Source: Escherichia phage outra. Taken from it: a DNA stretch of 64,000 nucleotides. Of this stretch, positions 17,749 to 34,604 are shown piece after piece. The position numbers were made by a program, and so were the translations under genes. Positions within the stretch are counted from its first letter, which is position 1. Each line of letters starts with the position of its first letter. The notes beneath the pieces were generated by a model that saw nothing but the letters and a program-made list of their open reading frames with translations, did not search any database and was not told the DNA's origin. The stretch lies in sequence record MN850645.1, one strand, 5' to 3'.

Positions 17749-18909
17749 TTAGTAAGAACGACCACCAAACACATACTCTGTGTAGTTTTTACGTTCTTTG
17801 TTTTTAATAACAACTTCAATGTTGTTACCTTTATCATCGGTGAACATAAAGTGATAACCGTCACCGCCCATTGTACGGATGTGTTTTTCATCATACGTCA
17901 GCAAGATACGGTCTACACCCCAGTAGTAGTCACCTTCTTCGTCTTTATCTTCTACGGTAACGACTCCTTCCATTTCAGGAAGATGCTCTTCTCCTAGCTT
18001 ATGGTCTACAGCTACAACATAACGATTACCGCTAAACAAACCCTGTGCTGTCATACCGTCAATATCGGTATCTGCCGAAACATCTCCTGTACGATCTACA
18101 CCGTTAACTTTCAGAAGTTTAACTTCTTTTGCAGCATAGCGGTGTTCAGTAATACTGATACCCATTAATGCAAGTGCATCAGAGAATTTGTCATTAGGGT
18201 AACGGTTAAGTTCTTCTACTAATGACTGAACAATATCAAAGTTCAAGTCCACGGACAGATTATAAAGCGTTTCAAAATCTGGTAAAAAGGCTTTGTTCTC
18301 CAGATTTTTAGCCAGATAATCATCCATAGTAGCTTTAGGTAGTTTCTTATAGCTAAAGCTGTAGAAAATACGGCTAGGGCGATTACGCAAAAATTCTGAT
18401 ACATAACCATCATTTTTAGTCAATACAAACAGCTTGTCATAGCCACCAACACCATCCAGCAGGGTAAGCAAACCATCCTGTGCATCTTTTTCAGCATACA
18501 GTTTATCAAATTCATCGATCATAATCATCACAGGTTGTGTGATTTTAGACATAAAATTGATAAAGCCTTCACCATTAAAAGCACTACCGATAGAAATAGT
18601 AGGAATACCCATTTCACGAAGAGCAGAAGACAGCATTTTAGCTTGCAAAGTTTTACCGCTACCCTTCGTACCCTCAAGGAGAACACCTGTGTTTTTACCT
18701 TTGCGGCTAAGGAACGTCTTGATAATACGTTCTGATTTATCATCAGTATCACCGTATGTTACTGAAGGGACTTCCATATCGTTTTTAGGATACAGGAAGA
18801 ACTCGCCACTTTGAGTAACACCTACACCAAAAGTTCCTGCTGGAATTTCTTCAATATCTGTACCAGACTTCTGACGCAGGAAGATTTGATTGCCGAATAC
18901 TGTAAACAT
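17749..18909 (-). CDS. AAA+ family ATPase, paralog A
   Basis: 386 aa; Walker A GTKGSGKT, Walker B IMIDEFDKL; paralog of 33477..34604; GGAG RBS. Confidence 0.75.
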   Translation of the reverse strand: MFTVFGNQIFLRQKSGTDIEEIPAGTFGVGVTQSGEFFLYPKNDMEVPSVTYGDTDDKSERIIKTFLSRKGKNTGVLLEGTKGSGKTLQAKMLSSALREMGIPTISIGSAFNGEGFINFMSKITQPVMIMIDEFDKLYAEKDAQDGLLTLLDGVGGYDKLFVLTKNDGYVSEFLRNRPSRIFYSFSYKKLPKATMDDYLAKNLENKAFLPDFETLYNLSVDLNFDIVQSLVEELNRYPNDKFSDALALMGISITEHRYAAKEVKLLKVNGVDRTGDVSADTDIDGMTAQGLFSGNRYVVAVDHKLGEEHLPEMEGVVTVEDKDEEGDYYWGVDRILLTYDEKHIRTMGGDGYHFMFTDDKGNNIEVVIKNKERKNYTEYVFGGRSY

Positions 18910-18929
18910 AGTTTTCTCCTCTATTTAAT

Positions 18930-19400
18930 TTAGTCAGATTCCCAAATGTTGTCTTTCTTAACCCACATTCGTTGATTATCTGAACCTCTATAACGTTTCG
19001 TTGTTGGTTGAGTCATATCATACTTACCATCTATTACTATGTCAACCAGTTTTTTAATTTTCTCTGGAATTTCTTCAAAAAGATATCCTGTATATAAGAC
19101 AATATCTTTTTTGTTTCTAAAACAATCTCTTACCTTCTCAAGAACATACTCTACAGTGTCAATGTTCTCTTTGTCAAGAGGTTCACCACCTAAAACTGTT
19201 AATCCTTTAATGAAAGGTCGAGATAAATCTTTCAAGATAAGATCTAATGTTTCAGTAGTGAACTCTTGTCCGTAGTTATACGACCAGGCTTTCTGGTTAA
19301 AGCAGCCACGGCAACCGTGGCTACAACCGCTCACCCACAAAGAGCATCTTACACCATCACCGTTGAGCATGTCAACAGGTTCATATCCGGCGTAATTCAA
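18930..19400 (-). CDS. nrdG: anaerobic ribonucleotide reductase activating protein (radical SAM)
   Basis: 156 aa; CSHGCRGC radical-SAM cluster motif; overlaps nrdD stop. Confidence 0.85.
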   Translation of the reverse strand: MNYAGYEPVDMLNGDGVRCSLWVSGCSHGCRGCFNQKAWSYNYGQEFTTETLDLILKDLSRPFIKGLTVLGGEPLDKENIDTVEYVLEKVRDCFRNKKDIVLYTGYLFEEIPEKIKKLVDIVIDGKYDMTQPTTKRYRGSDNQRMWVKKDNIWESD

Positions 19401-21196
19401 AAATGTTTCTCCCTTTCTAATACCTCTTGCATTTTACCTTTATTATAAGGGCGAGAGTTAGGGGCAGACAGGTATCCTGACACTCTTCTGATTACAGATA
19501 TAGATTCTTCCTCATGATTGCCACAACTTGGACACTCGAAGCCTTTAGCTGTTGCCTTAAATTCACCATGAAAACCACATTTGAAACACTGATCTACAGG
19601 TTGGTTCACGCCAAAATAAGGAATTTTGTTGTAGGCATAATCTACAAGGGTTTCCAGTGCTTGCAAGTTATTTTTAAGGTTTGGTGTTTCTACATAGCCT
19701 ATGTTCCCACCATTACTGATTTGTGCAAAACCTTCCTCATAATCCCACTTTTGGAACGGGGTAGTGTGCATCCACACAGGTTGATGGAAAGAGTTTGTCA
19801 AGTAGTCACGATCAATAGAACCAGGATAGCGATCATTTAATGCTTTGGCAAATTTATAACACAAGGATTCTGCTGGTGTTCCATACAAACTAAAAGCTAA
19901 ACCAGAACGTTCTTTAAATGTGCCACAGATATCCTTCATATATTGAAGGATGTTTTTACCCATTGCTTTTGGATTGGTGTTACCTGGGTATAAAATCTCC
20001 ATAGCTTCTGCTAAACCTACATAACCGATACTAATAGAGGCATAACCACCTTCGAATAGCTTACCAATCTCTTCATTAGCTTCTAGTCGAGCTAAAGCCC
20101 CTTCCATAAACAATGTAGGGTTTTGAGATGCTTTGGTATGTCTAATACGGTTAACACGTAGCATATGTGCCTTATACGCCATCTCCATATGTTGTTCCAA
20201 CAGTTCAGTAAATAAGATGCCCTTTTCACGGGACTCTGCTGCAATGATAGGTAAGTTTAAAGAAACTACGCCTAAGTTGAAACGACCATCATATTTTTCA
20301 CCTTGCTCTGTTGCATAGTATGACAAGAAGCTACGGCAACCCATGCTTGTGACGCGACCATCTGAAGATCCTGTAACTTCTTTGTTTAAAGGTACAGAGA
20401 TAAAATCAGGATAAATGCGTTCAGCACAACACTCCATTGCCAGTTGCTTCAAATCATAATTTGGATCGCCAGCTTTCATGTTAACACCATCTTCCAAGAA
20501 GAAGATAACTTTAGGAAACACAGGAGTTACCCTATCTTTTCCCAATCCTTGTTTGTGCACCATTAGGTAGTTTTTAGTGATCATTCTACCAAAAGCAGAG
20601 GTATCCAAACCTAAACTAATTGTTATAAAAGGTGACTGACCATTTACACTCATTAGAGTGTTCACCTGGTAGATTAAAGTTTGCATTGCATCATAGACCT
20701 GTTTATCTACCATACGCATAGCAATATCATAATCGCCAACATCGGCATATATTTTATTAAAACTTGCTTTAACGTATTGACTAAGCCCAGTATCAACATG
20801 TGCACAAGTTTGTCCACCATATTGGCTAGAAGCTACTGCTTGAATAATTTGAGTTAGGACAGTAGTCGCTACACCGATAGATTTTGGTTTTTCAATATGT
20901 GCATTACCAATACGGAAACCGTTCTCAAGCATATCTTGGTAATTTACCAGGCAACAATTAGTTAAAGGTGAGAGTAAATAATCTAAATCGTGAATGTGAC
21001 CATACCCACTTTTATGCCATTCTGCCAGATCTTCCGGTAAAATATGGGTCATTGCCATGTGCTTGCTTAGGATACCTGCTAGTAAGTCTCGGTGAGTATT
21101 AACAATCATTGCAGGTTTGTTTGCATTTTCACGAGTAAATTCTTCGGATGTTTGTTCGAGGAATCCGATTACATCCTCATATAGTTTTTGGGTCAT
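19397..21196 (-). CDS. nrdD: anaerobic ribonucleoside-triphosphate reductase
   Basis: About 600 aa; C-terminal CFKCGF...CPSCGN zinc ribbon and glycyl-radical-type RVSGYL; start at Met with GGAGG RBS. Confidence 0.9.
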   Translation of the reverse strand: MTQKLYEDVIGFLEQTSEEFTRENANKPAMIVNTHRDLLAGILSKHMAMTHILPEDLAEWHKSGYGHIHDLDYLLSPLTNCCLVNYQDMLENGFRIGNAHIEKPKSIGVATTVLTQIIQAVASSQYGGQTCAHVDTGLSQYVKASFNKIYADVGDYDIAMRMVDKQVYDAMQTLIYQVNTLMSVNGQSPFITISLGLDTSAFGRMITKNYLMVHKQGLGKDRVTPVFPKVIFFLEDGVNMKAGDPNYDLKQLAMECCAERIYPDFISVPLNKEVTGSSDGRVTSMGCRSFLSYYATEQGEKYDGRFNLGVVSLNLPIIAAESREKGILFTELLEQHMEMAYKAHMLRVNRIRHTKASQNPTLFMEGALARLEANEEIGKLFEGGYASISIGYVGLAEAMEILYPGNTNPKAMGKNILQYMKDICGTFKERSGLAFSLYGTPAESLCYKFAKALNDRYPGSIDRDYLTNSFHQPVWMHTTPFQKWDYEEGFAQISNGGNIGYVETPNLKNNLQALETLVDYAYNKIPYFGVNQPVDQCFKCGFHGEFKATAKGFECPSCGNHEEESISVIRRVSGYLSAPNSRPYNKGKMQEVLEREKHF

Positions 21197-21210
21197 TAAT
21201 CCTCCGTGGA

Positions 21211-21240
21211 AAATAAAAGCCAGCATTAAGCTGGCTTTAG
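21211..21240 (-). terminator. Rho-independent terminator (minus strand) between 21286..22236 and nrdD
   Basis: aaagccagcattaagctggcttt flanked by A/T tract. Confidence 0.6.
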
Positions 21241-21285
21241 GGTGGATCTTTATTTTAAATCTTTTTCGTAAGATTGTCCTTGATC

Positions 21286-22236
21286 TTAGTCAAGGTTTTT
21301 GGTAATACGTGTACAACCATCAGAAGTCAAACCGTCAACTTGAGTTTCCCAAGTGCCATGAATATTTCGGAACAATGTTGTTACACCTTTTGGTTCATTA
21401 ATAATGATTGCCATAACAAGTTTAGGATCGATAACAGACATAATCTTTTCCTCAATACCCTCTGTAATAACATTATTACGCACAATATTAATTACATCTT
21501 CTTGTACAGAAAGGGTACTTACGTTCTTAAGAGTATATACCTGCTGCGTAGTGTAAATGATACGAACATAACTTACAGAACGAGTAGGCACAGGTTTACG
21601 CGGTCGGCGAAAACGTGGTTTTGGTGAAGATTCAGTCTTACTTTCATTTTTTGAATAATACTCCTCAAACAGTTTAGTAAATGTTTTTACATCAACTACA
21701 AACCGATCTTTCCTATATGGAGAATTCTTATGTGCACCATTAATACCACTGTTTTCATCGAAGAAAGTAATGTTTTCTTCAGTTGAATATGTTAGATAAT
21801 GGTCTGCATCTTTCCAATGTGGTTGTGGACAATGCGGATTACAAACGGAAAGCAGATAACTAATATCTTCTTCCGTTGCACTAGTATCCAGGAAACACGT
21901 ATTGTGCACAGTCAGTTGTACTTTTGCAACCATATCCATTTCTTTATCCTCGTTGGCAAGATATTCAGTACGAATAATTTCCAGAAAACCTTCAGGTGTT
22001 ACTTCCATAAATGTGTATTCAGGGTGAAGTTCCATATATTCAAATCCACAACCATCTAATTGCTGTAGGAAGTTAGGATAGAAGAACAAGTCATTAACAC
22101 TATGAATCAGATCATTGATTTCTGCTTCAGATGTGTAACCAAAACTTTTGTGAATTGCTTCATTAAGAATATGCAGGATACCCATCTCTTCTGCTGCTTT
22201 TTTAACTTCCAGTTTATTAGCGTAAAATGCAATCAT
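21286..22236 (-). CDS. hypothetical protein
   Basis: 316-aa ORF followed by hairpin terminator at about 21211-21240. Confidence 0.5.
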   Translation of the reverse strand: MIAFYANKLEVKKAAEEMGILHILNEAIHKSFGYTSEAEINDLIHSVNDLFFYPNFLQQLDGCGFEYMELHPEYTFMEVTPEGFLEIIRTEYLANEDKEMDMVAKVQLTVHNTCFLDTSATEEDISYLLSVCNPHCPQPHWKDADHYLTYSTEENITFFDENSGINGAHKNSPYRKDRFVVDVKTFTKLFEEYYSKNESKTESSPKPRFRRPRKPVPTRSVSYVRIIYTTQQVYTLKNVSTLSVQEDVINIVRNNVITEGIEEKIMSVIDPKLVMAIIINEPKGVTTLFRNIHGTWETQVDGLTSDGCTRITKNLD

Positions 22237-22253
22237 TATGTTCTCCTTCTAAA

Positions 22254-22688
22254 TTAGTTTAAAATTTCTTTGGCAATGGTAGAAGCAAGTTTTCCATCAT
22301 ATTGATTAGGATACTCTGCTTTAAGGTGTTTCATCATATCTGGCATTTTCTTGCCTGTCAAGGCAAATTCTTCAGCAATCGCTCGAAGGTCATCTTCAGA
22401 TAGCATTTCTGGCAAATATTTTTCCAGAGTGGTGATATCACGCATAGCTCGCTCACATTTGCTAATGGAAGCATTAACTTTCTTAAGTGAGTCTAGCTCC
22501 TCTTTAGCGTGTGCAATACCAATCTTAACAATGTTAATCATAATATCATCTTCTGATTTATTTAGATTTGCCTTTTGAGTACGCGCAAGGTCAAACTCAC
22601 CAATAATATTAGTTAACAAAGCAAAAGCACCCTTATCGGTTGTACGTGCTAAGATACGATCTGCTTTCATTTGTGTCACAATAGACAT
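22254..22688 (-). CDS. GatB/YqeY-domain protein
   Basis: 144 aa; YLPEMLSEDDLRAIAEEF...GKKMPDMMKHLKAEY...GKLASTIAKEIL matches the YqeY pattern. Confidence 0.55.
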   Translation of the reverse strand: MSIVTQMKADRILARTTDKGAFALLTNIIGEFDLARTQKANLNKSEDDIMINIVKIGIAHAKEELDSLKKVNASISKCERAMRDITTLEKYLPEMLSEDDLRAIAEEFALTGKKMPDMMKHLKAEYPNQYDGKLASTIAKEILN

Positions 22689-22700
22689 TCTATTCTCCTC

Positions 22701-23273
22701 TTATTTGCTAATGCTTTGAGTCTTGTTTACAACACGGTTTATTGCCAGTGAAGCCCTAGGCTCTGCAATACCTGTTGCATAGATATAAGGATGACCTTTT
22801 GGAGACTCCCTCATACCGAATGAACCTAATTCTAAACCATATTCATCCTCTACGTCAACCCCAATATTAGTGGGTACTAAATATGTTTTAACTCCATAAT
22901 AAGTAGAGAAGAAACAGCGCATAGAGTTAGCATACTCTTCAATTGTAGCATCAGGGTAGAACTCAATCAACTCCAATTTCAAGAAAATATTAAAATGGGT
23001 ATCATCTAAATTTTCTTCTGTGCGGTAACATGGTGTTAGTGCCATATACGGATTACCTACTGCAAATTCAAAACCATCCTTCTCCATTTGCAGGAAAGAT
23101 TGTTCTGCACTAGCTACATAGTATTTACCGTTAGGATGCCCTAATGGGCGATCCTCTTTATTTTCTGGTAGTGTATACGCCAGTATATCAGCATCCACGA
23201 GATATGGAACTTCCAACATTTGTGCAAATCGACCATAGTAATCAATAGCTTGAGCTATTACTGCAACATTCAT
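22701..23273 (-). CDS. hypothetical protein
   Basis: 190-aa ORF; no confident domain. Confidence 0.45.
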   Translation of the reverse strand: MNVAVIAQAIDYYGRFAQMLEVPYLVDADILAYTLPENKEDRPLGHPNGKYYVASAEQSFLQMEKDGFEFAVGNPYMALTPCYRTEENLDDTHFNIFLKLELIEFYPDATIEEYANSMRCFFSTYYGVKTYLVPTNIGVDVEDEYGLELGSFGMRESPKGHPYIYATGIAEPRASLAINRVVNKTQSISK

Positions 23274-23521
23274 GATCGACCTCCATTGCGGAATGCACGT
23301 TTAGTAATGTTTGACATAGTGATCAAATCTTGAAGCGTCATACCAGGAAAATGCTGTTCAAGAACACCTTCAACAGCGCCTACAATATCTGATAACTCAA
23401 TAAGTTGCATCAGCTTGCAATCTTGATCAATAGCATCTTGAAGTTCATAAAGCTCTTCTTGAATCTTAGCAACAGAACCATATTCCTCTTTGCTAATCTC
23501 CTTCAAATGATACCCTGCCAC
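23270..23521 (-). CDS. MazG/HisE-like nucleotide pyrophosphohydrolase-like small protein
   Basis: 83 aa; EELYELQDAI...LIELSDIVGAVEGVLEQH resembles the all-alpha NTP-PPase helix pair. Confidence 0.4.
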   Translation of the reverse strand: MAGYHLKEISKEEYGSVAKIQEELYELQDAIDQDCKLMQLIELSDIVGAVEGVLEQHFPGMTLQDLITMSNITKRAFRNGGRS

Positions 23522-23533
23522 TTTAACCCCCCC

Positions 23534-25270
23534 TTAGTTTACCAGTTTATTTATATCTGGTAAAAGATTTATTTCACCTAAGAAATCACCTTCACCTTCC
23601 TCTAGCCAACTCTCATATGCTTGTGCATGATTATAGTTACCATCAAAAGAATCTGCAACAAATTTTTCTACAGTTTTTCGAGATGTGCCAGCGCCAAATA
23701 CACCAAGTTTAATACCATTGATCGGTAAAGTGGTACTTGTGGGTACTTTCTCTGTTGCAACACGGTTGATATCTATAATCTCCTGTACGGTTGTGTTCCA
23801 TTGTAAGCATTTAACACAACGGGTATGCGCTACATACAGTAGGTTTCGCTCTGCCTCTTCCAGTCCTACCCATTCACCAGTCTTTTTATCATAGTTGGAA
23901 GGAAAATCATTAGCAACAATAACCTGATCCCACTCCAAACCTTTAGACTTGTGTGCTGTAGTCAGTGTGACTTTTGCTGTAGGAGAATTTCTATGCGTTC
24001 TAAGTGTATGTGCTATAGTGTTTGCCTTACCAGAAACTACGATGTTTAACAAGCGTTTAGCATCTGGATCAGCCTCTGCACACTCAACAAATTCATCCCA
24101 GTCTGCGTAAGGTAATACAGTTTCATGTTTTACTTTCTCAATATCTCCTCTCCGAAGAGCATTAACACTATCTACCATAGAGATAAAATCCCTGGTATCT
24201 ACGTTAATAATAATTTCTTCCCCATCTGCAATACGATCCATTGCCTCCATAAGCAAGGTTAAATTCTTGCGAAAGATGATAGTGTAAGGTTTTGTATAGT
24301 CTACAACATCTGATTTGTAGCTACCTACTACAGTATCAAAACCTTTACCAACCAAAGGATGACGCAAAGGTTCTTTATCGCTTAAAATCATATTGGCAAT
24401 GTTTGCCACTTTGGGGCCAAAACGGAAGCAAGCAGTTAATGGAAGCTCTGCCCCATATGTAGAGGTTTCCTTCATCATATTTTGGCTTCCACGGAACTGG
24501 TAGATGCTCTGATATTCGTCACCCACCACTACTACTTGTTTTGCAGATTTAGCATTTCGCAGAATAGACAAGAATGCAGGGTTAACATCCTGGAATTCAT
24601 CACCAAAAATAATATCATAACCAAGATCAGCACCAGATAATTCAAACAATTTTACATAGGTGTCATGCGTCATCAAAGTATCTGTGTTAGGATCGATGCG
24701 CTCTCGCCACAATTGTTTTGCATACTTAACTACTTCTGTAATTAGTTTGTGTTCGTTAATACCTTTTCTTTTAATATCTGCAAGATGTACACTAGGAAAA
24801 TGTTTACGGCTGATAAAAGGATCATCCGAAAATTCAAACTTACCTACGGTTTGCTTGATCATTAAACCGATCATAGCACGAGTTAAAAGTGTTTTCCCTC
24901 GTTTATCAATAAGATTATTAATCTTAAATTTCTTTGCTATCTCACTACCTGTACCTGCAACGTTAACATACTGTCCTTCTGGTCGTGACAGTTTTGCACG
25001 TAAACGATGATCCAGGAATTGATAGCAAATAGAATGCAATGTACGGCATTCTACATTTAGTGGCATCTTACGTCGTGCTTCTTCTGCCATGCTTTTATTG
25101 AAAGCTAAGTAAAGAATGCGATCTTCTGTACTGTTAGCCAGCAAATAAAGTGTTGACGTTTTGCCTGATCCAGATTTAGCTTGGATAGTTAAAAAGCGAT
25201 GGTCTGGAAAAGCCTCCTTAATAGCTGTCTGCTCTTCTGTTGGAGTGAAGCTCAACTCTTTCTTAGCCAT
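23534..25270 (-). CDS. UvrD/Rep-like superfamily 1 DNA helicase
   Basis: Walker A SGSGKTST, VVGDEYQSIYQFRG (SF1 motif III), IFGDEFQD; start at Met overlapping upstream stop. Confidence 0.8.
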   Translation of the reverse strand: MAKKELSFTPTEEQTAIKEAFPDHRFLTIQAKSGSGKTSTLYLLANSTEDRILYLAFNKSMAEEARRKMPLNVECRTLHSICYQFLDHRLRAKLSRPEGQYVNVAGTGSEIAKKFKINNLIDKRGKTLLTRAMIGLMIKQTVGKFEFSDDPFISRKHFPSVHLADIKRKGINEHKLITEVVKYAKQLWRERIDPNTDTLMTHDTYVKLFELSGADLGYDIIFGDEFQDVNPAFLSILRNAKSAKQVVVVGDEYQSIYQFRGSQNMMKETSTYGAELPLTACFRFGPKVANIANMILSDKEPLRHPLVGKGFDTVVGSYKSDVVDYTKPYTIIFRKNLTLLMEAMDRIADGEEIIINVDTRDFISMVDSVNALRRGDIEKVKHETVLPYADWDEFVECAEADPDAKRLLNIVVSGKANTIAHTLRTHRNSPTAKVTLTTAHKSKGLEWDQVIVANDFPSNYDKKTGEWVGLEEAERNLLYVAHTRCVKCLQWNTTVQEIIDINRVATEKVPTSTTLPINGIKLGVFGAGTSRKTVEKFVADSFDGNYNHAQAYESWLEEGEGDFLGEINLLPDINKLVN

Positions 25271-25271
25271 T

Positions 25272-27024: not shown

Positions 27025-27025
27025 A

Positions 27026-27739: not shown

Positions 27740-27740
27740 T

Positions 27741-28223
27741 TTAACCACCCAATTGCAAATGTTTAGAAAGAACAATATCCCACTGATCACCACAACCATT
27801 ATCTATGCGGAACATAATGTACGTATCATCTTCTTCTACGACATATAATACCTCATAGGAATTACAACAGCCTTCCCAATTTTTAACAGCCTCTGGTGTA
27901 TGATGTGTAAGGATTTCATTACCATCATATGACCAAAACAAAGGGGTAAGGTTTTCGAAGGTCAGTGAAGTAGGGTTTACTTCATCTTTAACTGCTTCCT
28001 CATATTCTTTATGCGTTTGTACTGCTTTAGTTAGTGTACTCATGTCTATCTCCTTTTCTCCTTCTTGACTATGGAGGATAGCGAACTCTCTAAACTCCAC
28101 CTCACGCCATGTTTTCAGGTAGTGCTTTATAATTTGATCAACATCTACCTGTTCAACGTTACTTTTCAAGCAATAGTAGTCATGGTCTTCACCCATTCTA
28201 CCCCATATGCTATACATTGTCAT
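27741..28223 (-). CDS. hypothetical protein
   Basis: 160-aa ORF. Confidence 0.4.
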   Translation of the reverse strand: MTMYSIWGRMGEDHDYYCLKSNVEQVDVDQIIKHYLKTWREVEFREFAILHSQEGEKEIDMSTLTKAVQTHKEYEEAVKDEVNPTSLTFENLTPLFWSYDGNEILTHHTPEAVKNWEGCCNSYEVLYVVEEDDTYIMFRIDNGCGDQWDIVLSKHLQLGG

Positions 28224-28491
28224 CTGATTGATCCTTCACATTGTTCTTGGCATACACAGGAATAACATCATGGTGATCTTTATTACTTTCGTCTGTTAAA
28301 GCCCAAAACAACTTACCTGCCGGATGTTTAAAGATGTAAGCAATAGGTTCCTCTTCCTGTGCTTCTTTGCTACGGATGCCATCCCGCCAGGCAAGCCAAG
28401 TGTAGATCATCATCTCTTGACGTTCTTCTTCATTAGGCCACAGATGGGGTAGAAAGTTTTTATCAAACCATTGCTTAAACTCTTCAGTCAT
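28210..28491 (-). CDS. hypothetical protein
   Basis: 93-aa ORF. Confidence 0.4.
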   Translation of the reverse strand: MTEEFKQWFDKNFLPHLWPNEEERQEMMIYTWLAWRDGIRSKEAQEEEPIAYIFKHPAGKLFWALTDESNKDHHDVIPVYAKNNVKDQSDDNV

Positions 28492-28726
28492 AATCTACTC
28501 CTTAGCGTACAAAGTTAACTTCTGCTTCTTTCAGCTTTGACACTTCTACATAACCACCATGATCATCTTTAATCCATTCTTTTCCTTTTCGGATGATAAC
28601 AGGGTAGGTAGAGTGAGTAAGTTTAGGTACAGATCTTTTTGTTTTAGTGATAGAAATGTTTTGCATAGTAGTCTCCTTAGTAAATTTTACATAGAATCTA
28701 GATTATTTAGTAGGTAGAGTCAATAA

Positions 28727-28993
28727 CTAATTACTGTTAGATCTGTACTCTGTCTTCCATTCACAATGGTAAACTTCAACAGGTTCTAACTTCCAGTGTT
28801 CAGGAACTAGTTCAGGACAATATCTACAAAAGAGAAATAGATAGATAACTAAGACAGGTATTAAATAGTAAAATGGTATACGATCATAACCATACTTACG
28901 AGATAACATGTAGACATATAGATAGGGTATAACAATTAATCCTATAACTATAAGTAAGAAGAGAAGTATAAACCTTAGTGTAGTAACATCCAT
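28727..28993 (-). CDS. small membrane protein
   Basis: 88 aa, two hydrophobic helices. Confidence 0.4.
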   Translation of the reverse strand: MDVTTLRFILLFLLIVIGLIVIPYLYVYMLSRKYGYDRIPFYYLIPVLVIYLFLFCRYCPELVPEHWKLEPVEVYHCEWKTEYRSNSN

Positions 28994-29157
28994 AGTATTC
29001 TCCTATACAGTAATATACTCTGTTCCTGCCCCTCCATGAGTGACAGGAACAATATCTATAGAGAATACTAACTCGCTTCGCTCGTCACCTTTCAGGTTTA
29101 GGGTAGCATGTTTTTCTGAAAAAGTCAATACTCTCCACAAAACTTTACAAAATACTT

Positions 29158-29430
29158 TTACATAGGTACAACAGAGTCTGTTTTGAAGTCGTACATATGA
29201 TTTACACCTGTGATTTTTGACATAGAGATTGCACGTTTAGCACCTGCAATTACCTGGTCTGTCTTCTTAATCTCTTCACGGAACTTACGTACAGTTAAAG
29301 AGAAGAAACGATGATCCATCCATTGACGATTCACACGATCACGCTTGAAGTGACGGAAATCTTCAATCTGCTTATTGCGCAATCGGCGCAGTACATGCAA
29401 TAGTTGATAGTAAGGGTGTTTATTTTTCAT
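29158..29430 (-). CDS. hypothetical basic protein
   Basis: 90-aa ORF. Confidence 0.4.
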   Translation of the reverse strand: MKNKHPYYQLLHVLRRLRNKQIEDFRHFKRDRVNRQWMDHRFFSLTVRKFREEIKKTDQVIAGAKRAISMSKITGVNHMYDFKTDSVVPM

Positions 29431-29433
29431 AAA

Positions 29434-29862
29434 TTATTCTCCAAATCGAAAATCGTCAATATCATCAAACCATACACAATGGCGAGTCCTTTCTTTTTCT
29501 GTTGCAGACATTGTTTCAACAGCTTTAGGACTAAGCACAACAGGAGTGTAACGAATAGGTCGTTCATAATAGTAGCCATACTTTTCTGTATTAGCTGCCT
29601 CAAAGACTTTACGGCGTTCTTCAAGATCTTCTATGGTGAATCCTACCATATAGCCATCATATTTGCTACCCCATCCTTCCTCGCTTTCAACAATCGGGAT
29701 ATAAAAGCCGTTACGCGTCCCTAACGCTGGTTTTTCTTGAGCCTGAAGGCAAGCCTCCCATCCTGCTTTAAAGACGTTATAGAGCGATTTACGCACGTTA
29801 TGAGTGCCGCTTTCGCTTGCTGGATAGAGTTCATTAAATTTATCTTGGATTTGTTGTGTCAT
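29434..29862 (-). CDS. hypothetical protein
   Basis: 142-aa ORF. Confidence 0.45.
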   Translation of the reverse strand: MTQQIQDKFNELYPASESGTHNVRKSLYNVFKAGWEACLQAQEKPALGTRNGFYIPIVESEEGWGSKYDGYMVGFTIEDLEERRKVFEAANTEKYGYYYERPIRYTPVVLSPKAVETMSATEKERTRHCVWFDDIDDFRFGE

Positions 29863-30005
29863 ACTCGCCCCTTAGTGATTATTTGACCAGCTAAACAAAT
29901 AGCTTGTAGTACAATAAAGAAGTAGCCTAATTTTACACTACCCAATACCCAGAATGCAATGTTTGCAAACAAACAAAAAGCAATATTAAGTCTAAAGAAT
30001 AACAT

Positions 30006-30206
30006 TTAATCCCCTTCATATTTAGGTAAAGGCATATATGCCACAATAGGAGGGTAATCAAAGTGAAAATGATGGTTCACCACAATAATCTTACCAGACA
30101 TACTTTTATGCACTTCACAATACCCTTTTTCACCATCTTCCATTACCACCACATACTCACCTAGTGGGATATCGTATGGATCTTCTACTTTTACCCATTC
30201 TGTCAT
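30006..30206 (-). CDS. hypothetical protein
   Basis: 66-aa ORF. Confidence 0.35.
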   Translation of the reverse strand: MTEWVKVEDPYDIPLGEYVVVMEDGEKGYCEVHKSMSGKIIVVNHHFHFDYPPIVAYMPLPKYEGD

Positions 30207-30472
30207 TTTGGAAATACCTCTTGTCCATCTTCATGCATTTGTAGTAAAGTTTCACAGATTTCATACACATCTTGGTATGTTACAACTGAGAGATCAGATT
30301 CTTGATCTTCGACAAGCATAGCACAAAGAGCTTTAATGTCAATACCTTTACAATGTTCCGTAGCTACACGGTACATTTCACCATCCTCCCAAACAATTGG
30401 TTGCGGGAGCAAAACATCTGTACCATCTTCACAAGTTACAATGTAGTCTGCAATATTATCACGAATTTTCAT
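30203..30472 (-). CDS. hypothetical protein
   Basis: 89-aa ORF, overlapping stops/starts with neighbours. Confidence 0.35.
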   Translation of the reverse strand: MKIRDNIADYIVTCEDGTDVLLPQPIVWEDGEMYRVATEHCKGIDIKALCAMLVEDQESDLSVVTYQDVYEICETLLQMHEDGQEVFPK

Positions 30473-30726
30473 TGTACTACCCCCTTAAATCCAGATGTAC
30501 TGCCAGTTTTAACTTTTGCTTTAAGAGGTTCCAACTCTACCATAGGTGTTGCTACTTGTATAGGATTTTCCTCAACCTCATAAATATAATATTCATAATA
30601 AGCATACTTACCAATAGAGTGCAGATACTTAATTGCATGTTCAGGTGAATCTGCTTCAACATACCCCAAATCTTTTGTAGTGCGGCCTTCACAGTCGCCT
30701 TCTGTAGTTACGTGATAAAGTGTCAT
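30469..30726 (-). CDS. hypothetical protein
   Basis: 85-aa ORF. Confidence 0.35.
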   Translation of the reverse strand: MTLYHVTTEGDCEGRTTKDLGYVEADSPEHAIKYLHSIGKYAYYEYYIYEVEENPIQVATPMVELEPLKAKVKTGSTSGFKGVVQ

Positions 30727-31046
30727 AAAACCTCCTTCTTGTTGGCTGCTTCAATCATAGCGTTAAGAGTCTCCATACCACTGTCAACTGCTTGAGCAAT
30801 CTCTTGGAACACCGTTTTCTTAAAGATGTATAAAGATCCTGCCTGTAAGCGTTGCACACAGCATAAGATGGTTTGGTGATCCATAACAAAATCACCATAA
30901 GCACAATCAATTTTCCCTGTGATTGGGTTGTCTCGTGAGCGAGGATCGTATTCTAATGTGATATGCGTTACACCAGGTAAAGTAACAAACTGACAACGGA
31001 TATTGACACGTGGTGCAATTGACACGCTAAACAGACTGTTTGACAT
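30723..31046 (-). CDS. hypothetical protein
   Basis: 107-aa ORF. Confidence 0.35.
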   Translation of the reverse strand: MSNSLFSVSIAPRVNIRCQFVTLPGVTHITLEYDPRSRDNPITGKIDCAYGDFVMDHQTILCCVQRLQAGSLYIFKKTVFQEIAQAVDSGMETLNAMIEAANKKEVL

Positions 31047-31189
31047 TTAAACCTCCTCATAGTAAGGTAAAGCCTTGATCAGTTGTTCTGAAGTGCCATT
31101 TTGCACCCACGTAACACCATTGTCAACAGAAACATACCCTTTTTTGTCAATAAATTTACGCAGACAGCCAGTGAACTTATTTTTGTAGA

Positions 31190-31357
31190 TCATTTCTTCT
31201 TTCCTTTTTGATTACACCCCCCATCACTCCCTTGCCAAACTTCCGATCTGAATTCCATCTCAAACCACTCACCACCGCAAAAACGGTTATGTTCAACACG
31301 TCTATCTTCCTTCATTGCTTCTTTAGCTTCGATAGAAGTTAGTTCGATGTTTTGCAT
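31190..31357 (-). CDS. hypothetical small protein, first gene of the minus-strand block
   Basis: Start at Met with AAAGGAG RBS. Confidence 0.35.
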   Translation of the reverse strand: MQNIELTSIEAKEAMKEDRRVEHNRFCGGEWFEMEFRSEVWQGSDGGCNQKGKKK

Positions 31358-31475
31358 TTGTTTTTCTCCTTTCATTTGGTATGCGCTAATCTTAACAAAA
31401 TAAAAATGTATGTCAATACTTGATTTGAAATTAGTTTCTGGTACTCTGTGGGTATCGTAACAAAAGAGGTTAGAT

Positions 31476-31766
31476 ATGAACATCACACTAGCAACTAAGA
31501 ATATTACAGAAACTTTTGATGGTTTTGGCATTATTATTGCTGTTCATGGGCATAACGAAAAATGGTTAGCCTCTTTTGAAGAGGACAAAGAACGCAATGT
31601 ACGTTTGAATGCACCAATCAAAGTTTTACACCAGGTAGGTGAGAATAAGAAACAATGGAGATCATACAAAGAGTGGAACATTACGAACGAGTTAATACAC
31701 AAACTTGACAAAGTGATAAACATGTTCGACAATGCACCAAGCAGTGCAAAACGTGTTTTACTATAA
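31476..31766 (+). CDS. hypothetical protein, first gene of plus-strand block
   Basis: 96 aa; AGAGG RBS. Confidence 0.45.
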   Translation: MNITLATKNITETFDGFGIIIAVHGHNEKWLASFEEDKERNVRLNAPIKVLHQVGENKKQWRSYKEWNITNELIHKLDKVINMFDNAPSSAKRVLL

Positions 31767-31777
31767 AGGAGAGTGAT

Positions 31778-32131
31778 ATGAAAATTGTACACGATGAAAT
31801 TCAATTTGAAGAGAGTGATCTTCTTGATCTGGATGTGACACTAAGTAAACTGATCTACAACGCACTTTCTGCATATCGTGCAAAAGTGATAGCCACAAAC
31901 AATGTTAAAATTCCTAGCGGGTTACTTCGTCGGATGTACCCACACGCTAAAGGTGACTATCTACCTTATATGGAAGAACGAGCAGCAGAACACTGGTTAG
32001 AAATTCTTGAAAAAATGGAGTCCTCTTTTAAGGATTCAACTCCACCTGAAGAAGTTAATGAAAAACAACGGCAAGAGCGTTTAGAAGGTCGTATTTTGTT
32101 TGCTAAGTATTTCCATAATTTGTGGAGCTAA
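31778..32131 (+). CDS. hypothetical protein
   Basis: 117 aa; GGAGAG RBS. Confidence 0.45.
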   Translation: MKIVHDEIQFEESDLLDLDVTLSKLIYNALSAYRAKVIATNNVKIPSGLLRRMYPHAKGDYLPYMEERAAEHWLEILEKMESSFKDSTPPEEVNEKQRQERLEGRILFAKYFHNLWS

Positions 32132-32229
32132 ACATATCTGGTAAAATCACTTATATGTTCTTAGTATACTTGTGTAAAGAAGTTATCTAACAGGTGTTGA
32201 GTGGACTATTAAATTAGGAGGGCTTTAAT

Positions 32230-32568
32230 ATGTTTAGTAAAGAAATGAGAGAAGTAATTGCCACTTTGGTAGTTGATCATGGTGTTGAAGTTGAGCGTCA
32301 CGTTTGGAACGATGAACCTCCTTTCTTCGATTTGGCATCACGAGCTAAAAGTCATATGCACCTGCTGGAAGACGGTAATGAGTTTGTTCTCCGTATGCGT
32401 TATGATCGAGAGTTTCGAATTCCGCTTGACACTGAACCAGATGGTGTAGTAATGTGGTTGGCAGAACATTTCGCATACGATGCACTACATGGAAGAAGTT
32501 TTGGTAATGAGCGTTGGGATGCCATTTGTCGTAAGCATAATATTGAACCAGAGTACGGAGTTTTATAA
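32230..32568 (+). CDS. hypothetical protein
   Basis: 112 aa; AGGAGGG RBS. Confidence 0.45.
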   Translation: MFSKEMREVIATLVVDHGVEVERHVWNDEPPFFDLASRAKSHMHLLEDGNEFVLRMRYDREFRIPLDTEPDGVVMWLAEHFAYDALHGRSFGNERWDAICRKHNIEPEYGVL

Positions 32569-32819
32569 TGTTAAGTATCAAACCTAAAATGATAACAGCA
32601 GATGAAGCAGACTTTATTTTCAAATGTGGACGTGTATGGAGAGAATTCACAAAAGGGAATGAAGTGGTTGTTGTTGTCGAACACAAGATATCTATCCAGG
32701 ATCTGTTTGGACAATATGTTGATGTTATTAAATTAGGTATTGACAAGGGTTTAGTTGAGGTGTTAACATTAGATCAAGTTGAAGCAGAGCACCTCGATAA
32801 AGTGGTGGTTGAATTTTAA
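32568..32819 (+). CDS. hypothetical protein
   Basis: 83 aa; ATG overlaps upstream stop. Confidence 0.4.
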   Translation: MLSIKPKMITADEADFIFKCGRVWREFTKGNEVVVVVEHKISIQDLFGQYVDVIKLGIDKGLVEVLTLDQVEAEHLDKVVVEF

Positions 32820-32839
32820 AATACAGACGGGAGAAAGGT

Positions 32840-33013
32840 ATGAGTTTCTTTGTTACAGTATTTATGGCTATCTGGATTGTAGTCTCACTCGTTCTTTTCC
32901 TGGTGGGTTGTCTGGAAGAGATTAAGAAAGCGGTTATTTGCGGTTTCTTTGGCTTTATTATCTCTCCTGCCTGGATGTGGTTCTTCATTATGATTGGTTT
33001 CCTTAAAAGGTAA
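32840..33013 (+). CDS. small hydrophobic membrane protein
   Basis: 57 aa hand-translated (MSFFVTVFMAIWIVVSLVLFLVGCLEE...), GGGAGAAAGG RBS. Confidence 0.35.
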   Translation: MSFFVTVFMAIWIVVSLVLFLVGCLEEIKKAVICGFFGFIISPAWMWFFIMIGFLKR

Positions 33014-33027
33014 GTGAGGAATAAAGA

Positions 33028-33465
33028 ATGAGTAAAACAAACGCAATCGCAGATAAAGCAACGGATGTACTTCTGAACATGGTTAACGTCACTATTCAAA
33101 CAATGAGTGATGTTGTAGAGTTTGGAAAACAACAAATTCCAGAAGTAATCCATCAACTATTAGTGTGGAAAGCAGTATCCGCAGGTTTATGGCAACTTTT
33201 TAGTATTTGCTTTATGTTTATTACTTTTATTGCTGTGCGGAACCTCGTAAAAGCAATTAAAGATAAAGAATGCCTGTGGTCACGAGATCGCTATGGTGAA
33301 GTATCTGCTTTACCTATTGTTGGCCTTGTTGTCTGTGCTTTCTTTTTCTTTTTAGGATTTGTTATTTTCTTTTCGAATTTTGATTGGCTAAAAATCATTA
33401 TTGCACCAAAAGTGTATCTGATTGAATTTGCTGCTGATTTAATTCGTTCATCTCAACAAAAATAA
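33028..33465 (+). CDS. membrane protein
   Basis: 145 aa, several hydrophobic helices. Confidence 0.45.
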   Translation: MSKTNAIADKATDVLLNMVNVTIQTMSDVVEFGKQQIPEVIHQLLVWKAVSAGLWQLFSICFMFITFIAVRNLVKAIKDKECLWSRDRYGEVSALPIVGLVVCAFFFFLGFVIFFSNFDWLKIIIAPKVYLIEFAADLIRSSQQK

Positions 33466-33476
33466 AAGGGGTTAAA

Positions 33477-34604
33477 ATGAAATACACGATTTATGGTGAT
33501 ATTGTAAGTGTAAATAAAGATATGGGCGTGGAATCTAACTATCTTCCACCTGGATTCTATACTGTTAGTCGTGATCCCCTTGGCAATTATTTTTTAAGCC
33601 GTGGTAATCTGACAGGTGTACCTGATGTTCTGTATGGTGAAACAGAAAAACGAGCAAATCACGTTATCCGTACATTCCATCGCCGGAGTGCACAAGGTAA
33701 AAATACAGGATTGCTTCTGACAGGAACTAAGGGTAGTGGTAAAACTATGTTAGCCAAACTCATTAGTCGTGACCTTGTAGAAGAAGGTATTCCAACTATT
33801 ATGGTTACTCAAGCCTACAGCGATGCTAATTTCATTGAACTTATTAGCAAGATCACCGACAAAGCAGTGATTATTTTTGACGAGTTTGATAAAGTGTATG
33901 AGAAGAAACAAGATCAAGAAGCACTTCTCACTTTGTTAGATGGTACTGGCAGTGGTAATAAACTGTTTATTCTAACTAAAAACAGTGGCTTTATCTCTGA
34001 ATTCTTTCTAAATCGTCCTAGTCGTGTGTTTTATAATTTTAATTATGATAAAATCTCACTAGAAACTATGATTGACTATTTAGATAAAAACCTGGATAAC
34101 AAAGCACACTTTGATAATTTCCAAAGGCTTTGGGATGTAAGTTTAGAGTTGTCCTTTGATGTGATCCAAGGTATAGTAGAAGAACTTAATTTCTACCCTG
34201 ATTTATCCTTTAAAGAATGCATCTCTATGATGGGCGTTTCTTTGGGTGGTGGTAATAAGTGGGATATCAGCAGCGTTGTTATTAATGGGAAACTTCAGAA
34301 AGTTAGCTGGGTATCTAGTTGGCATAACTTCACACCTGCAATCTTTTTAGGTGGCTCGTGCACACTAGACGTGTACTTGTCATCTCCAAGTGATGCAGAC
34401 TCTAAAGAAGCCCTTGCTAATAGCTCTTACGTGGTTTTTGATGATGAAGGAGATGCTCGAATTCCATTGAATGCGACAAAAATGAAAGCAGATCTTATTA
34501 CAGGCGGTAAAATCGTTGTGTTTAGTGATGATCCAGAAGATTCTTTCCGTATTGTTCTGGAACCAACTATCACCAATGGTGCAACTTTGGCAAGCGTGTT
34601 TTAA
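33477..34604 (+). CDS. AAA+ family ATPase, paralog B
   Basis: 375 aa; Walker A GTKGSGKT, Walker B IIFDEFDKV; LLTLLDG.G...LF.LTKN.G..SEF..NRPSR.FY.F.Y shared with 17749..18909. Confidence 0.75.
   Translation: MKYTIYGDIVSVNKDMGVESNYLPPGFYTVSRDPLGNYFLSRGNLTGVPDVLYGETEKRANHVIRTFHRRSAQGKNTGLLLTGTKGSGKTMLAKLISRDLVEEGIPTIMVTQAYSDANFIELISKITDKAVIIFDEFDKVYEKKQDQEALLTLLDGTGSGNKLFILTKNSGFISEFFLNRPSRVFYNFNYDKISLETMIDYLDKNLDNKAHFDNFQRLWDVSLELSFDVIQGIVEELNFYPDLSFKECISMMGVSLGGGNKWDISSVVINGKLQKVSWVSSWHNFTPAIFLGGSCTLDVYLSSPSDADSKEALANSSYVVFDDEGDARIPLNATKMKADLITGGKIVVFSDDPEDSFRIVLEPTITNGATLASVF

What the first reader, a model, noticed from the sequence alone, without database searches (positions are those of the whole stretch)
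17749..34604. Two diverged paralogous AAA+ ATPases on opposite strands (17749..18909 minus, 33477..34604 plus)
Both proteins share Walker A GTKGSGKT, Walker B DEFDK and a long collinear C-terminal block, but differ in their N-termini. One sits beside the ter-like block and nrdG/nrdD, the other beside the homing-endonuclease-like and NADAR genes. Duplicated regulatory ATPases in a phage are uncommon and may indicate subfunctionalised remodelers acting on different substrates.
Basis: seen in the sequence. Interest (0 to 1): 0.5.

Follow-up and report, generated by a model that had tools for sequence, protein, structure and literature searches.

The report
Two paralogous phage AAA ATPases
A phi92-like E. 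coli phage carries two old, diverged copies of a widespread but functionally unstudied phage ATPase that looks like a ring-shaped protein-remodelling motor; both genes are real and intact, but they are already annotated in dozens of public phage genomes and nothing here reveals their job.

Summary
Both ORFs exist exactly as given: 17749..18909 minus (386 aa, here "copy 1") and 33477..34604 plus (375 aa, "copy 2"). They are true paralogs, 47% identical over 254 aa, E=1e-81. The shared block is the N-terminal two-thirds (small beta domain, AAA core, lid). The C-terminal ~120-130 aa have diverged to 11% identity but are still homologous through an intermediate clade.

The window is a Justusliebigvirus (phi92-like), 99.5-99.9% identical to phage ESCO8. 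Both genes are already annotated there as "ATPase" or "ATPase or Zn metalloprotease".

Both belong to PHROG 2376, a large stand-alone family (about 3,300 50%-identity clusters) on phages and other mobile elements, with no published function found. Motifs and AlphaFold models place them in the classical AAA clade (Bcs1, NSF, FtsH, Rpt and spastin are the top matches). They are not FtsH proteases (no HExxH) and do not fit DnaC or clamp-loader types.

Copy 2 sits in a slot conserved across Stephanstirmvirinae. Copy 1 is an extra copy found only in the phi92 lineage and its Klebsiella relatives, and it is not tied to nrdDG.

The most likely reading is two ATP-driven protein remodellers with different specificity domains. 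This is inferred, not shown. Interest is modest.

The parts
17749..18909 (-). Copy 1: 386-aa AAA ATPase (Phi92_gp190 ortholog), the lineage-specific extra copy
   Evidence: ORF. PHROG 2376 matched full length, E=5e-104. PF00004 at 29.4 bits, above its cut-off. 99-100% aa identity to annotated genes in about 54 phage records. AlphaFold2 mean pLDDT 89.3.
18751..18909 (-). Copy 1 N-terminal five-strand beta domain (aa 1-53)
   Evidence: AlphaFold2 secondary structure. 28% identical to copy 2. No Pfam match.
18343..18750 (-). Copy 1 AAA alpha/beta module (aa 54-189). Walker A at 18649-18672, pore-loop-1 position A-F-N-G at 18571-18582, Walker B at 18502-18519, LLTLLDG at 18451-18471, sensor-1 LTKN at 18412-18423, NRPSR with two Arg at 18370-18384
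   Evidence: Motif coordinates. Column conservation across 104 family members.
18154..18342 (-). Copy 1 four-helix lid (aa 190-252) with the invariant F-D pair
17752..18153 (-). Copy 1 C-terminal beta-rich domain (aa 253-386), fast evolving
   Evidence: AlphaFold2 model. 11% identity to copy 2. dN 0.49 against 0.073 for the AAA core plus lid, compared with Klebsiella phage FKP3. Profile link to copy 2 through clade 3.
17721..17742 (-). Terminator-like hairpin 7 nt after the copy 1 stop codon, marking the end of the nrdD-nrdG-copy 1 gene run
   Evidence: 9-bp stem with 5 GC pairs, followed by a T-rich tail.
18930..21226 (-). nrdG (18930..19400) and nrdD (19397..21226), same strand, directly upstream of copy 1 with a 20-nt gap. 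This is context, not a conserved partner
   Evidence: Annotation. Klebsiella phage FKP3 keeps copy 1 but has no annotated nrdD or nrdG in the stretch shown. Phapecoctavirus keeps nrdDG without copy 1.
33477..34604 (+). Copy 2: 375-aa AAA ATPase, the copy at the slot conserved across Stephanstirmvirinae
   Evidence: ORF. PHROG 2376, E=7e-108. PF00004 at 38.9 bits. AlphaFold2 mean pLDDT 90.5. 64-75% identical orthologs at the same slot in Phapecoctavirus.
33477..33638 (+). Copy 2 N-terminal beta domain (aa 1-54)
33639..34052 (+). Copy 2 AAA alpha/beta module (aa 55-192). Walker A at 33723-33746, pore-loop-1 position A-Y-S-D at 33813-33824, Walker B at 33876-33893, LLTLLDG at 33924-33944, sensor-1 at 33972-33983, NRPSR at 34011-34025
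34053..34241 (+). Copy 2 lid (aa 193-255)
34242..34601 (+). Copy 2 C-terminal beta-rich domain (aa 256-375)
34620..34641 (+). Terminator-like hairpin 16 nt after the copy 2 stop codon
   Evidence: A terminator is annotated at the equivalent place in phage Schickermooser.
33028..33465 (+). 145-aa predicted membrane protein (phrog_3054) directly upstream of copy 2, 11-nt gap, same strand
   Evidence: Homologs lie elsewhere in the clade-3 phage locus L006, so it is not a fixed partner.

Best explanation
The two genes are ancient paralogs within one phage and mobile-element family of stand-alone classical-clade AAA ATPases (PHROG 2376). The architecture is a small N-terminal beta domain, an AAA alpha/beta module, a four-helix lid and a C-terminal beta-rich domain of about 120 aa.

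Both copies keep every catalytic and inter-subunit element: the Walker A lysine, the Walker B D-E, the LLxxLDG element, the sensor-1 Asn and two SRH arginines. I therefore infer that each is an active, ring-forming ATPase that remodels or unfolds a protein substrate. This is the activity of essentially all characterised classical AAA proteins.

The conserved motor is flanked by fast-evolving N- and C-terminal domains, which I infer to be the substrate- or adaptor-recognition modules. Copy 2 is the ancestral copy, held at a conserved locus across Stephanstirmvirinae. Copy 1 is an additional copy present only in the phi92 lineage and its Klebsiella relatives, placed at a variable slot downstream of nrdDG.

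The copies differ almost completely in the C-terminal domain and also at the pore-loop-1 position (F-N-G against Y-S-D). They therefore most likely act as separate homo-oligomers on different targets during infection.

Shown here: paralogy, family, clade-level motifs and fold, distribution, synteny and the rate difference between domains. Inferred: oligomeric state, protein-remodelling activity, different substrates and timing.
For: Paralogy: 47% identity over 254 aa, E=1e-81. Both match PHROG 2376 full length. The C-terminal domains are linked by profile comparison through clade 3, at 3e-8 and 2e-7.

Clade, by sequence: PF00004 is the best Pfam hit for both and is above its gathering cut-off. 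Invariant columns across 104 members are GxxGxGK, D-E, Q..L..DG, N169, R180-P-x-R183 and F227-D228. These correspond to the classical AAA motifs LNQLLxEMDG, TNR, RPGR and GAD, which I identify from established knowledge of the clade.

Selection: copy 1 is 99% conserved in about 54 phages. Whole-gene dN is 0.20 against dS 2.4 versus FKP3. The C-terminal dN is 3-7 times the core dN in both genes.

Distribution and synteny.

Family size and fixed architecture: 3,333 representatives at E<=1e-30, nearly all 340-440 aa.
Against: No substrate, partner or phenotype is known, and no conserved neighbour gene was found across lineages.

The canonical pore-loop-1 glycine is replaced by Asp in copy 2 and its whole clade. 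The middle residue is polar rather than hydrophobic in both copies. Threading through a pore is therefore not assured.

Oligomeric state was not modelled. Expression timing is unknown, and the promoter scan was not above chance.
Confidence: 0.55

Rival explanations
1. Replication accessory ATPase. The proteins would be helicase-loader (DnaC/IstB/Hda-like) or clamp-loader-like AAA+ proteins that load a replication factor on DNA, as several GenBank records imply.
For: There are weak profile hits to clamp loader (phrog_168, 1e-8) and DnaC-like loader (phrog_50 and phrog_3277, about 1e-6), and to Hda and IstB. Some records annotate homologs as 'replicative helicase', 'DNA polymerase III subunit beta', 'DnaC' or 'putative DNA replication protein'. 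Copy 1 lies among nucleotide-metabolism genes and a UvrD-type helicase. One family member carries a P-loop intein, as replication proteins often do.
Against: Those hits score 16-36 bits, against curated cut-offs of about 190-200 and against about 350-360 bits for the proteins' own family. The SRH has two arginines. There is no Arg at the lid position where sensor-2 would sit (F-D instead), no initiator-specific helix and no SRC motif. The top 50 Foldseek hits are all classical AAA proteins. Family genes in other phages sit among small early ORFs, not in replication modules.
Confidence: 0.12
2. The two copies co-assemble into one hetero-hexameric motor, like Rpt1-6, Pex1/Pex6 or Ycf2-FtsHi, rather than acting separately.
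For: All inter-subunit elements (Arg fingers, the LLTLLDG element) are identical in both copies. Hetero-oligomeric classical AAA rings are among the structural neighbours.
Against: Phapecoctavirus phages and nearly all other carriers have a single copy, so the family works as a homo-oligomer. The two genes lie about 15 kb apart on opposite strands in different transcription units. In the NJ tree the nearest relatives of copy 1 include clade 3, which gives no sign that copy 1 evolved as a dedicated partner of copy 2.
Confidence: 0.1
3. FtsH-like ATP-dependent zinc metalloprotease, as the legacy annotations 'ATPase or Zn metalloprotease' and 'FtsH-like protease' suggest.
For: The annotation appears in ESCO8, ECGD1, PHB05, PaulScherrer and JohannJBalmer. 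FtsH AAA modules are among the structural neighbours.
Against: There is no HExxH motif or reversed variant in either protein. There is no Pfam domain beyond AAA and related P-loop NTPase models. The C-terminal region is a 120-130 aa beta-rich domain with no Pfam match. The N-terminus is a soluble beta domain, not transmembrane helices.
Confidence: 0.02
4. Copy 1 is a redundant or decaying duplicate with no function of its own.
For: It is absent from the sister genus Phapecoctavirus and sits in a variable slot.
Against: The reading frame is intact and all catalytic motifs are retained. Copy 1 keeps the family-typical aromatic-x-Gly at the pore-loop position, which copy 2 has lost. It is 99% conserved across about 54 phages and 71-75% identical in Klebsiella relatives. 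dN is far below dS.
Confidence: 0.05

Closest known systems
PHROG 2376 ('ATPase'): uncharacterised phage AAA family. Members include Phi92_gp190, Salmonella phage 7-11 putative ATPase, GAP32_367, Brochothrix phage A9 gp41 and phiEF24C EFP_gp215
   Same: Both copies match the full profile (E=5e-104 and 7e-108) with the same four-part architecture. BFVD full-length structural matches are to these phage proteins.
   Different: Nothing structural. This lineage carries two members where nearly all other phages carry one.
Classical AAA clade (PF00004): Bcs1, NSF-D2, FtsH/FtsHi, proteasomal Rpt/PAN/Mpa, spastin/katanin/Vps4, Msp1/ATAD1, B. subtilis YjoB
   Different: Only 13-22% identity. The N- and C-terminal domains have no counterpart in the matched chains. 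The pore-loop-1 motif is degenerate (F-N-G and Y-S-D instead of aromatic-hydrophobic-Gly). There is no protease, MIT, double-psi barrel, transmembrane or Bcs1-specific domain.
Trip13/Pch2-like ATPase of type III CBASS (PDB 6p8v)
   Different: 13% identity. It does not rank above other AAA proteins, and no HORMA-type partner was identified. The resemblance is a lead only.
Helicase-loader and clamp-loader AAA+ proteins (DnaC/IstB/Hda, T4 gp44/RFC)
   Same: P-loop core and lid, with weak profile hits.
   Different: Scores are far below cut-offs. The arginine-finger arrangement differs, and there is no initiator-specific motif and no sensor-2 Arg.

Membership tests
PHROG 2376 (phage 'ATPase' family) | Full-length match to the family profile | tested here: met
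   Copy 1 aa 1-376 against profile 2-359 of 363, E=4.8e-104. Copy 2 aa 1-367 against 1-357, E=6.6e-108.
Classical AAA clade (PF00004) | Pfam AAA model above its gathering score | tested here: met
   29.4 and 38.9 bits against a cut-off of 21.2. It is the best Pfam hit for both.
Classical AAA clade (PF00004) | Walker A GxxGxGK[ST] and Walker B hhhhDE | tested here: met
   GTKGSGKT, and IMIDEF or IIFDEF. K, D and E are invariant in 104 members.
Classical AAA clade (PF00004) | Second region of homology: sensor-1 Asn followed by two arginines (RPGR-type) | tested here: met
   LTKN, then seven residues, then NRPSR. N169, R180 and R183 are invariant, and the family consensus is NRPGR.
Classical AAA clade (PF00004) | No sensor-2 arginine in the lid (GAD-type motif instead) | tested here: met
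   Invariant F227-D228 at the start of the lid helix, with no conserved Arg or Lys at that position. The positional equivalence is judged from the motif pattern, not from a structural superposition.
Classical AAA clade (PF00004) | No pre-sensor-1 beta hairpin, helix-2 insert or initiator-specific helix | tested here: met
   AlphaFold2 secondary structure shows a 6-residue loop between beta2 and alpha2 and a 7-residue loop between alpha3 and beta4 in both models.
Classical AAA clade (PF00004) | Pore loop 1 with aromatic-hydrophobic-Gly | tested here: inconclusive
   At this position the family has an aromatic residue in 86 of 104 members, then a variable polar residue, then Gly in 78 or Asp in 19. 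Copy 1 has F-N-G and copy 2 has Y-S-D.
Classical AAA clade (PF00004) | Ring (hexamer or heptamer) assembly and ATP-driven substrate remodelling | not testable with these tools
Confirmation needs biochemistry or multimer prediction.
FtsH / M41 zinc metalloprotease | HExxH zinc site in a C-terminal M41 protease domain, with N-terminal transmembrane helices | tested here: not met
   No HExxH or H..EH motif. No Pfam domain beyond AAA and related P-loop NTPase models. The C-terminal part is a 120-130 aa beta domain with no Pfam hit. The N-terminus is a beta domain.
Helicase loader / initiator clade (DnaC, IstB, Hda, DnaA, Orc/Cdc6) | Curated HMM cut-offs, an initiator-specific helical insertion and a sensor-2 Arg | tested here: not met
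   Best NCBIfam scores are 16-30 bits against cut-offs of 181-215. There is no insertion in the models and no sensor-2 Arg.
Clamp loader (T4 gp44 / RFC / gamma-tau) | Family profile match, an SRC-type single arginine finger and a C-terminal helical collar domain | tested here: not met
   phrog_168 scores E=1e-8 or 4e-5, against 1e-104 or better for the proteins' own family. The arginine motif is NRP[SG]R with no SRC. The C-terminal domain is beta-rich, not a helical collar.
Bcs1 | N-terminal transmembrane segment, Bcs1-specific domain and heptameric ring | tested here: not met

The most novel reading that the evidence does not exclude
The family is a mobile-element-borne 'disassemblase'. It would be expressed early and use a rapidly evolving C-terminal (and N-terminal) recognition domain to grab and unfold specific host proteins, for instance oligomeric immune effectors, in the way Trip13 takes apart HORMA complexes. 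The phi92 lineage would carry two copies with unrelated-looking recognition domains to cover two targets, which would fit its unusually broad host range.

The supporting evidence is circumstantial. The clade is the classical remodeller clade. The C-terminal dN is 3-7 times the core dN. The genes sit among small early-region ORFs in many phages. In Firmicutes genomes, family members sit next to PcfJ-like, MoxR-type and VWA genes typical of conjugative elements.
Probability: 0.12. Interest if true: 0.75.

Novelty: new member of a known kind. Interest (0 to 1): 0.27.

Why it matters
If the inference holds, this is a large, architecture-stable family of phage and mobile-element AAA motors: about 3,300 50%-identity clusters, on hosts ranging from E. 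coli to Enterococcus and in crAss-like and jumbo phages. Its targets are unknown. The phi92 group offers a natural experiment, with two diverged copies in one tractable E. coli phage (BASEL phages Bas60-62 are available) next to a sister genus that has only one.

It matters less as a discovery in this window. Both genes are already deposited and annotated in dozens of genomes, and a duplicated ATPase is not surprising by itself.

One practical result is that the legacy labels can be corrected. 'Zn metalloprotease', 'FtsH-like protease', 'replicative helicase' and 'DNA polymerase III beta' are not supported.

Tried and rejected
- Curated family assignment. NCBIfam and PADLOC gave only sub-threshold P-loop hits, so there is no curated family and no defence-system model.
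- Sequence search of the PDB. It gave only weak p97/Cdc48 D2 hits at E about 1e-4, plus a spurious influenza NS1 match to the lid and C-terminal region that I disregarded.
- Pfam on the isolated N- and C-terminal domains. Nothing was significant.
- Domain-level fold search.
- Is the 201-aa gene at the copy 1 slot in Phapecoctavirus a remnant of copy 1? No. There is no similarity (E=0.43) and it belongs to a different PHROG.
- Is copy 1 functionally tied to nrdDG? Rejected. FKP3 has copy 1 but no annotated nrdD or nrdG in the stretch shown, and Phapecoctavirus has nrdDG without copy 1.
- Conserved partner gene. Neighbourhoods in 8 phage loci and 80 bacterial or MAG loci are heterogeneous. The only recurrent sets come from closely related Lachnospiraceae loci (LeuC/LeuD-like pairs, a low-molecular-weight phosphatase) and from conjugative-element-like genes.
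- Origin of copy 1, duplication or lateral gain. The NJ tree groups copy 1 with a third clade from another ~154-kb phage. It has no support values and the flanks are rearranged, so this stays unresolved.
- dN/dS by domain. dS is saturated, so only dN values are usable.
- Promoter scan. Hits were not above the shuffled expectation.
- Literature. Seven searches and one full-text lookup found no study of this family.
Full report
**What is there**

Copy 1 is 17749..18909 on the minus strand, 386 aa. Copy 2 is 33477..34604 on the plus strand, 375 aa.

BLASTP aligns copy 1 aa 2-253 with copy 2 aa 3-256 at 47% identity with two gapped positions, E=1e-81. Both carry GTKGSGKT and DEFDK. The paralogy is real and far beyond chance.

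The collinear block is the N-terminal two-thirds, and BLASTP finds nothing in the last 120-130 residues. On a 104-sequence family alignment the identity by domain is as follows:

| Domain | Identity, copy 1 vs copy 2 |
|---|---|
| N-terminal domain | 28% |
| AAA alpha/beta module | 54% |
| Lid | 46% |
| C-terminal domain | 11% |

The C-terminal domains are nevertheless homologous.
- Both proteins match the PHROG 2376 profile end to end.
- Some 73-76%-identical orthologs of copy 2 align to copy 1 over its full length.
- Profile-profile comparison links both C-terminal clades to a third clade at E=3e-8 and 2e-7, although the direct comparison gives only E=0.015.

**Source and prior annotation**

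The window is a phi92-like myovirus, genus Justusliebigvirus, subfamily Stephanstirmvirinae. It is 99.5-99.9% identical to Escherichia phage vB_EcoM_ESCO8.

Both genes are already annotated in dozens of records as 'ATPase', 'putative ATPase or Zn metalloprotease' or 'FtsH-like protease'. Copy 1 corresponds to Phi92_gp190.

**Family and clade**

- **Pfam.** PF00004 (AAA) is the best hit for both and the only model above its gathering score for copy 1. Copy 2 also marginally passes nSTAND3, RNA_helicase and AAA_5.
- **Other libraries.** NCBIfam and PADLOC give only sub-threshold P-loop hits.
- **Invariant columns across 104 family members.**
  - The Walker A G..G.GK.
  - The Walker B D-E, followed by an invariant Lys.
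  - A Q..L...DG element.
  - A sensor-1 Asn.
  - R-P-x-R, with consensus NRPGR.
  - An F-D pair at the start of a lid helix.
- **Reading of the motifs.** From established knowledge of AAA+ classification, these correspond to the classical-clade signatures LNQLLxEMDG, TNR, RPGR (two SRH arginines) and GAD (no sensor-2 arginine).
- **Models.** AlphaFold2 models are confident, with mean pLDDT 90.5 for copy 2 and 89.3 for copy 1. They show a five-strand N-terminal beta domain, a minimal AAA alpha/beta fold, a four-helix lid and a beta-rich C-terminal domain. There is no pre-sensor-1 hairpin and no insertion between beta2 and alpha2.
- **Foldseek against the PDB.** All 50 top hits are classical AAA proteins.
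- **BFVD (viral structures).** The only full-length matches are uncharacterised phage ATPases from Erwinia, Salmonella, Proteus, Agrobacterium, Lactobacillus and crAss-like phages.
- **Pore-loop-1 position.** The family has aromatic-x-Gly: an aromatic residue in 86 of 104 members and Gly in 78. Copy 1 keeps F-N-G. Copy 2 and its whole clade have Y-S-D.
- **Protease motif.** Neither protein has an HExxH motif, so the 'Zn metalloprotease' label is unfounded.

**Distribution and evolution**

- tblastn finds the family in 360 phage records. They include Herelleviridae, Lactococcus 949-like, Staphylococcus 6ec-like, Grimontviridae, Proteus and Acinetobacter phages, and jumbo phages such as GAP32, CBB and Atu_ph07.
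- Only about 60 records have two places. Every two-copy record among the rows listed is a Justusliebigvirus or a Klebsiella relative.
- The sister genus Phapecoctavirus has one copy. It is 64-67% identical to copy 2 and sits at the same slot: ATPase, terminator, endonuclease-like gene, NADAR.
- The copy 1 slot is variable.

| Phage | Gene order at the copy 1 slot |
|---|---|
| Window (Justusliebigvirus) | nrdD, nrdG, copy 1, 67-aa phrog_17780, ..., HAD hydrolase |
| Schickermooser (Phapecoctavirus) | nrdD, nrdG, 63-aa phrog_17780, 201-aa phrog_22504, HAD hydrolase |
| Klebsiella phage FKP3 | copy 1 present, no annotated nrdD or nrdG in the stretch shown |

- The unrelated 201-aa gene in Schickermooser is not a remnant of copy 1. 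Adjacency to the anaerobic reductase genes is therefore incidental.
- A neighbour-joining tree of the conserved core groups copy 1 with a third clade from another ~154-kb phage. That pair is sister to the copy 2 clade. The tree has no support values. The flanks of the third-clade gene are rearranged relative to the window. Whether copy 1 arose by an old duplication or by lateral gain stays open.
- Copy 1 is not decaying.
  - It is 99% conserved among about 54 phages.
  - It keeps every catalytic motif.
  - Whole-gene dN is 0.20 against dS 2.4 versus FKP3.
- In both genes the C-terminal domain accumulates non-synonymous change 3-7 times faster than the core. The values are 0.49 against 0.073 for copy 1 and 0.48 against 0.17 for copy 2.
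- A profile search of 1.84 billion representatives finds 3,333 clusters at E<=1e-30. Nearly all are stand-alone proteins of 340-440 aa.

**Context**

Each gene is followed within 7-16 nt by a strong terminator-like hairpin. Each therefore closes a gene run: nrdD-nrdG-copy 1, and membrane protein-copy 2.

In other phages the family gene lies among small early-region ORFs without a recurrent neighbour.

In bacterial genomes and MAGs the contexts are prophage-like, conjugative-element-like or chromosomal, again without a universal partner.
- The conjugative-element-like loci carry PcfJ-like, MoxR-type AAA_5 and CobT-like VWA genes.
- The chromosomal contexts come from one group of related Lachnospiraceae loci.

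**Interpretation**

The best-supported reading is two active classical-clade AAA motors. They are most likely ring-forming protein remodellers, with a conserved engine and fast-evolving N- and C-terminal recognition domains.

Copy 2 is the ancestral copy. Copy 1 is a lineage-specific addition with a different recognition domain and a more canonical pore loop. Separate homo-oligomers acting on different targets is the simplest model.

What is shown is paralogy, family membership, clade-level motifs and fold, distribution, synteny and rate heterogeneity between domains. What is inferred is oligomeric state, substrate class and divergence of specificity.

Rivals:
- **Replication loader.** Weakly suggested by sub-threshold hits and by annotations in some records. 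Contradicted by the motifs and the fold neighbours.
- **Hetero-hexamer.** Possible, but unnecessary given that single-copy relatives exist.
- **FtsH-like protease.** Contradicted by sequence.
- **Redundant duplicate.** Contradicted by conservation.

**Novelty and interest**

No paper on this family was found in seven searches and one full-text lookup.

The genes themselves are not new. They are members of a catalogued but uncharacterised family within a very well-known superfamily, and a second copy in one lineage is a modest observation.

The more interesting possibility is a mobile-element 'disassemblase' whose variable domains track host targets such as immune complexes. The evidence does not exclude it, but it rests only on circumstantial points.

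Noticed in passing
P0225 (metagenomic family member, 727 aa); corresponds to the Walker A region, window 33723-33746 in copy 2: One family member carries an intein with a LAGLIDADG or Hom_end homing endonuclease. It is inserted directly after the Walker A lysine (…GEKGSGK|ALRV…VTHN|TQLARL…). Inteins usually sit in conserved sites of genes important to the element.
   Followed up: partly
Phage records MG065639.1 and MG065689.1 ('Campylobacter phage A150' and 'A110a', 146,366 bp): These records encode copy 1 at 99.2% aa identity and have two family copies like phi92-type coliphages. The Campylobacter label is probably a host or label error, or a contaminant.
   Followed up: no
window 34679..35851 (+) and 35852..36403 (+): The 390-aa protein after copy 2 has three CapR-homology treble-clef zinc modules (PF21817, 3e-43) and matches phrog_681 'endonuclease'. 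It is followed immediately by a NADAR-domain protein (PF08719, 2e-36). The same ATPase, endonuclease-like, NADAR order is kept in Phapecoctavirus.
   Followed up: partly
window about 10710..17359 (-); ESCO8_00201 to ESCO8_00210 in L001: Downstream of copy 1 lies a run of genes: HAD hydrolase (16685..17359, PF00702), a PRTase-like protein, a phosphatase, membrane proteins and a TelA-like 'toxic anion resistance' gene. The Phapecoctavirus counterpart also has TerD, TerC and vWA-TerF-like genes. This is a phage-borne Ter-type stress or metabolite module whose role in infection is unknown.
   Followed up: no
L035, L046, L048 (Pseudoflavonifractor capillosus, Lachnospiraceae bacterium A4, Eubacterium sp. 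14-2): Bacterial homologs of the ATPase sit next to PcfJ-like proteins (PF14284), a MoxR-type AAA_5 protein and a CobT-like VWA protein. These gene sets are typical of conjugative elements, so the family is not restricted to phages.
   Followed up: partly
L039, L080, L058 and about 10 related Lachnospiraceae MAG loci: In one group of related loci the ATPase gene is flanked by two LeuC/LeuD-like (aconitase-family) gene pairs and a low-molecular-weight phosphotyrosine phosphatase. This is an apparently chromosomal, non-prophage context.
   Followed up: no
window about 19397..21226 (nrdD) compared with phages VEcB and 'Justusliebigvirus alia' (OZ035770): Relative to the window these records align in two pieces, with extra DNA of about 280-770 bp in the 17000-22000 stretch. 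VEcB annotates two NrdD large-subunit pieces. This suggests an insertion, possibly an intron or homing element, splitting nrdD in some relatives.
   Followed up: no
Annotations of homologs: PP919962.1 (KP2025), MT740244.1 (Proteus phage 3H10_20), MZ501100.1 and MZ501084.1: The same family is labelled 'replicative helicase', 'DNA polymerase III subunit beta' or 'FtsH-like protease' in different records. None of these labels is supported by the motif and fold analysis here.
   Followed up: yes
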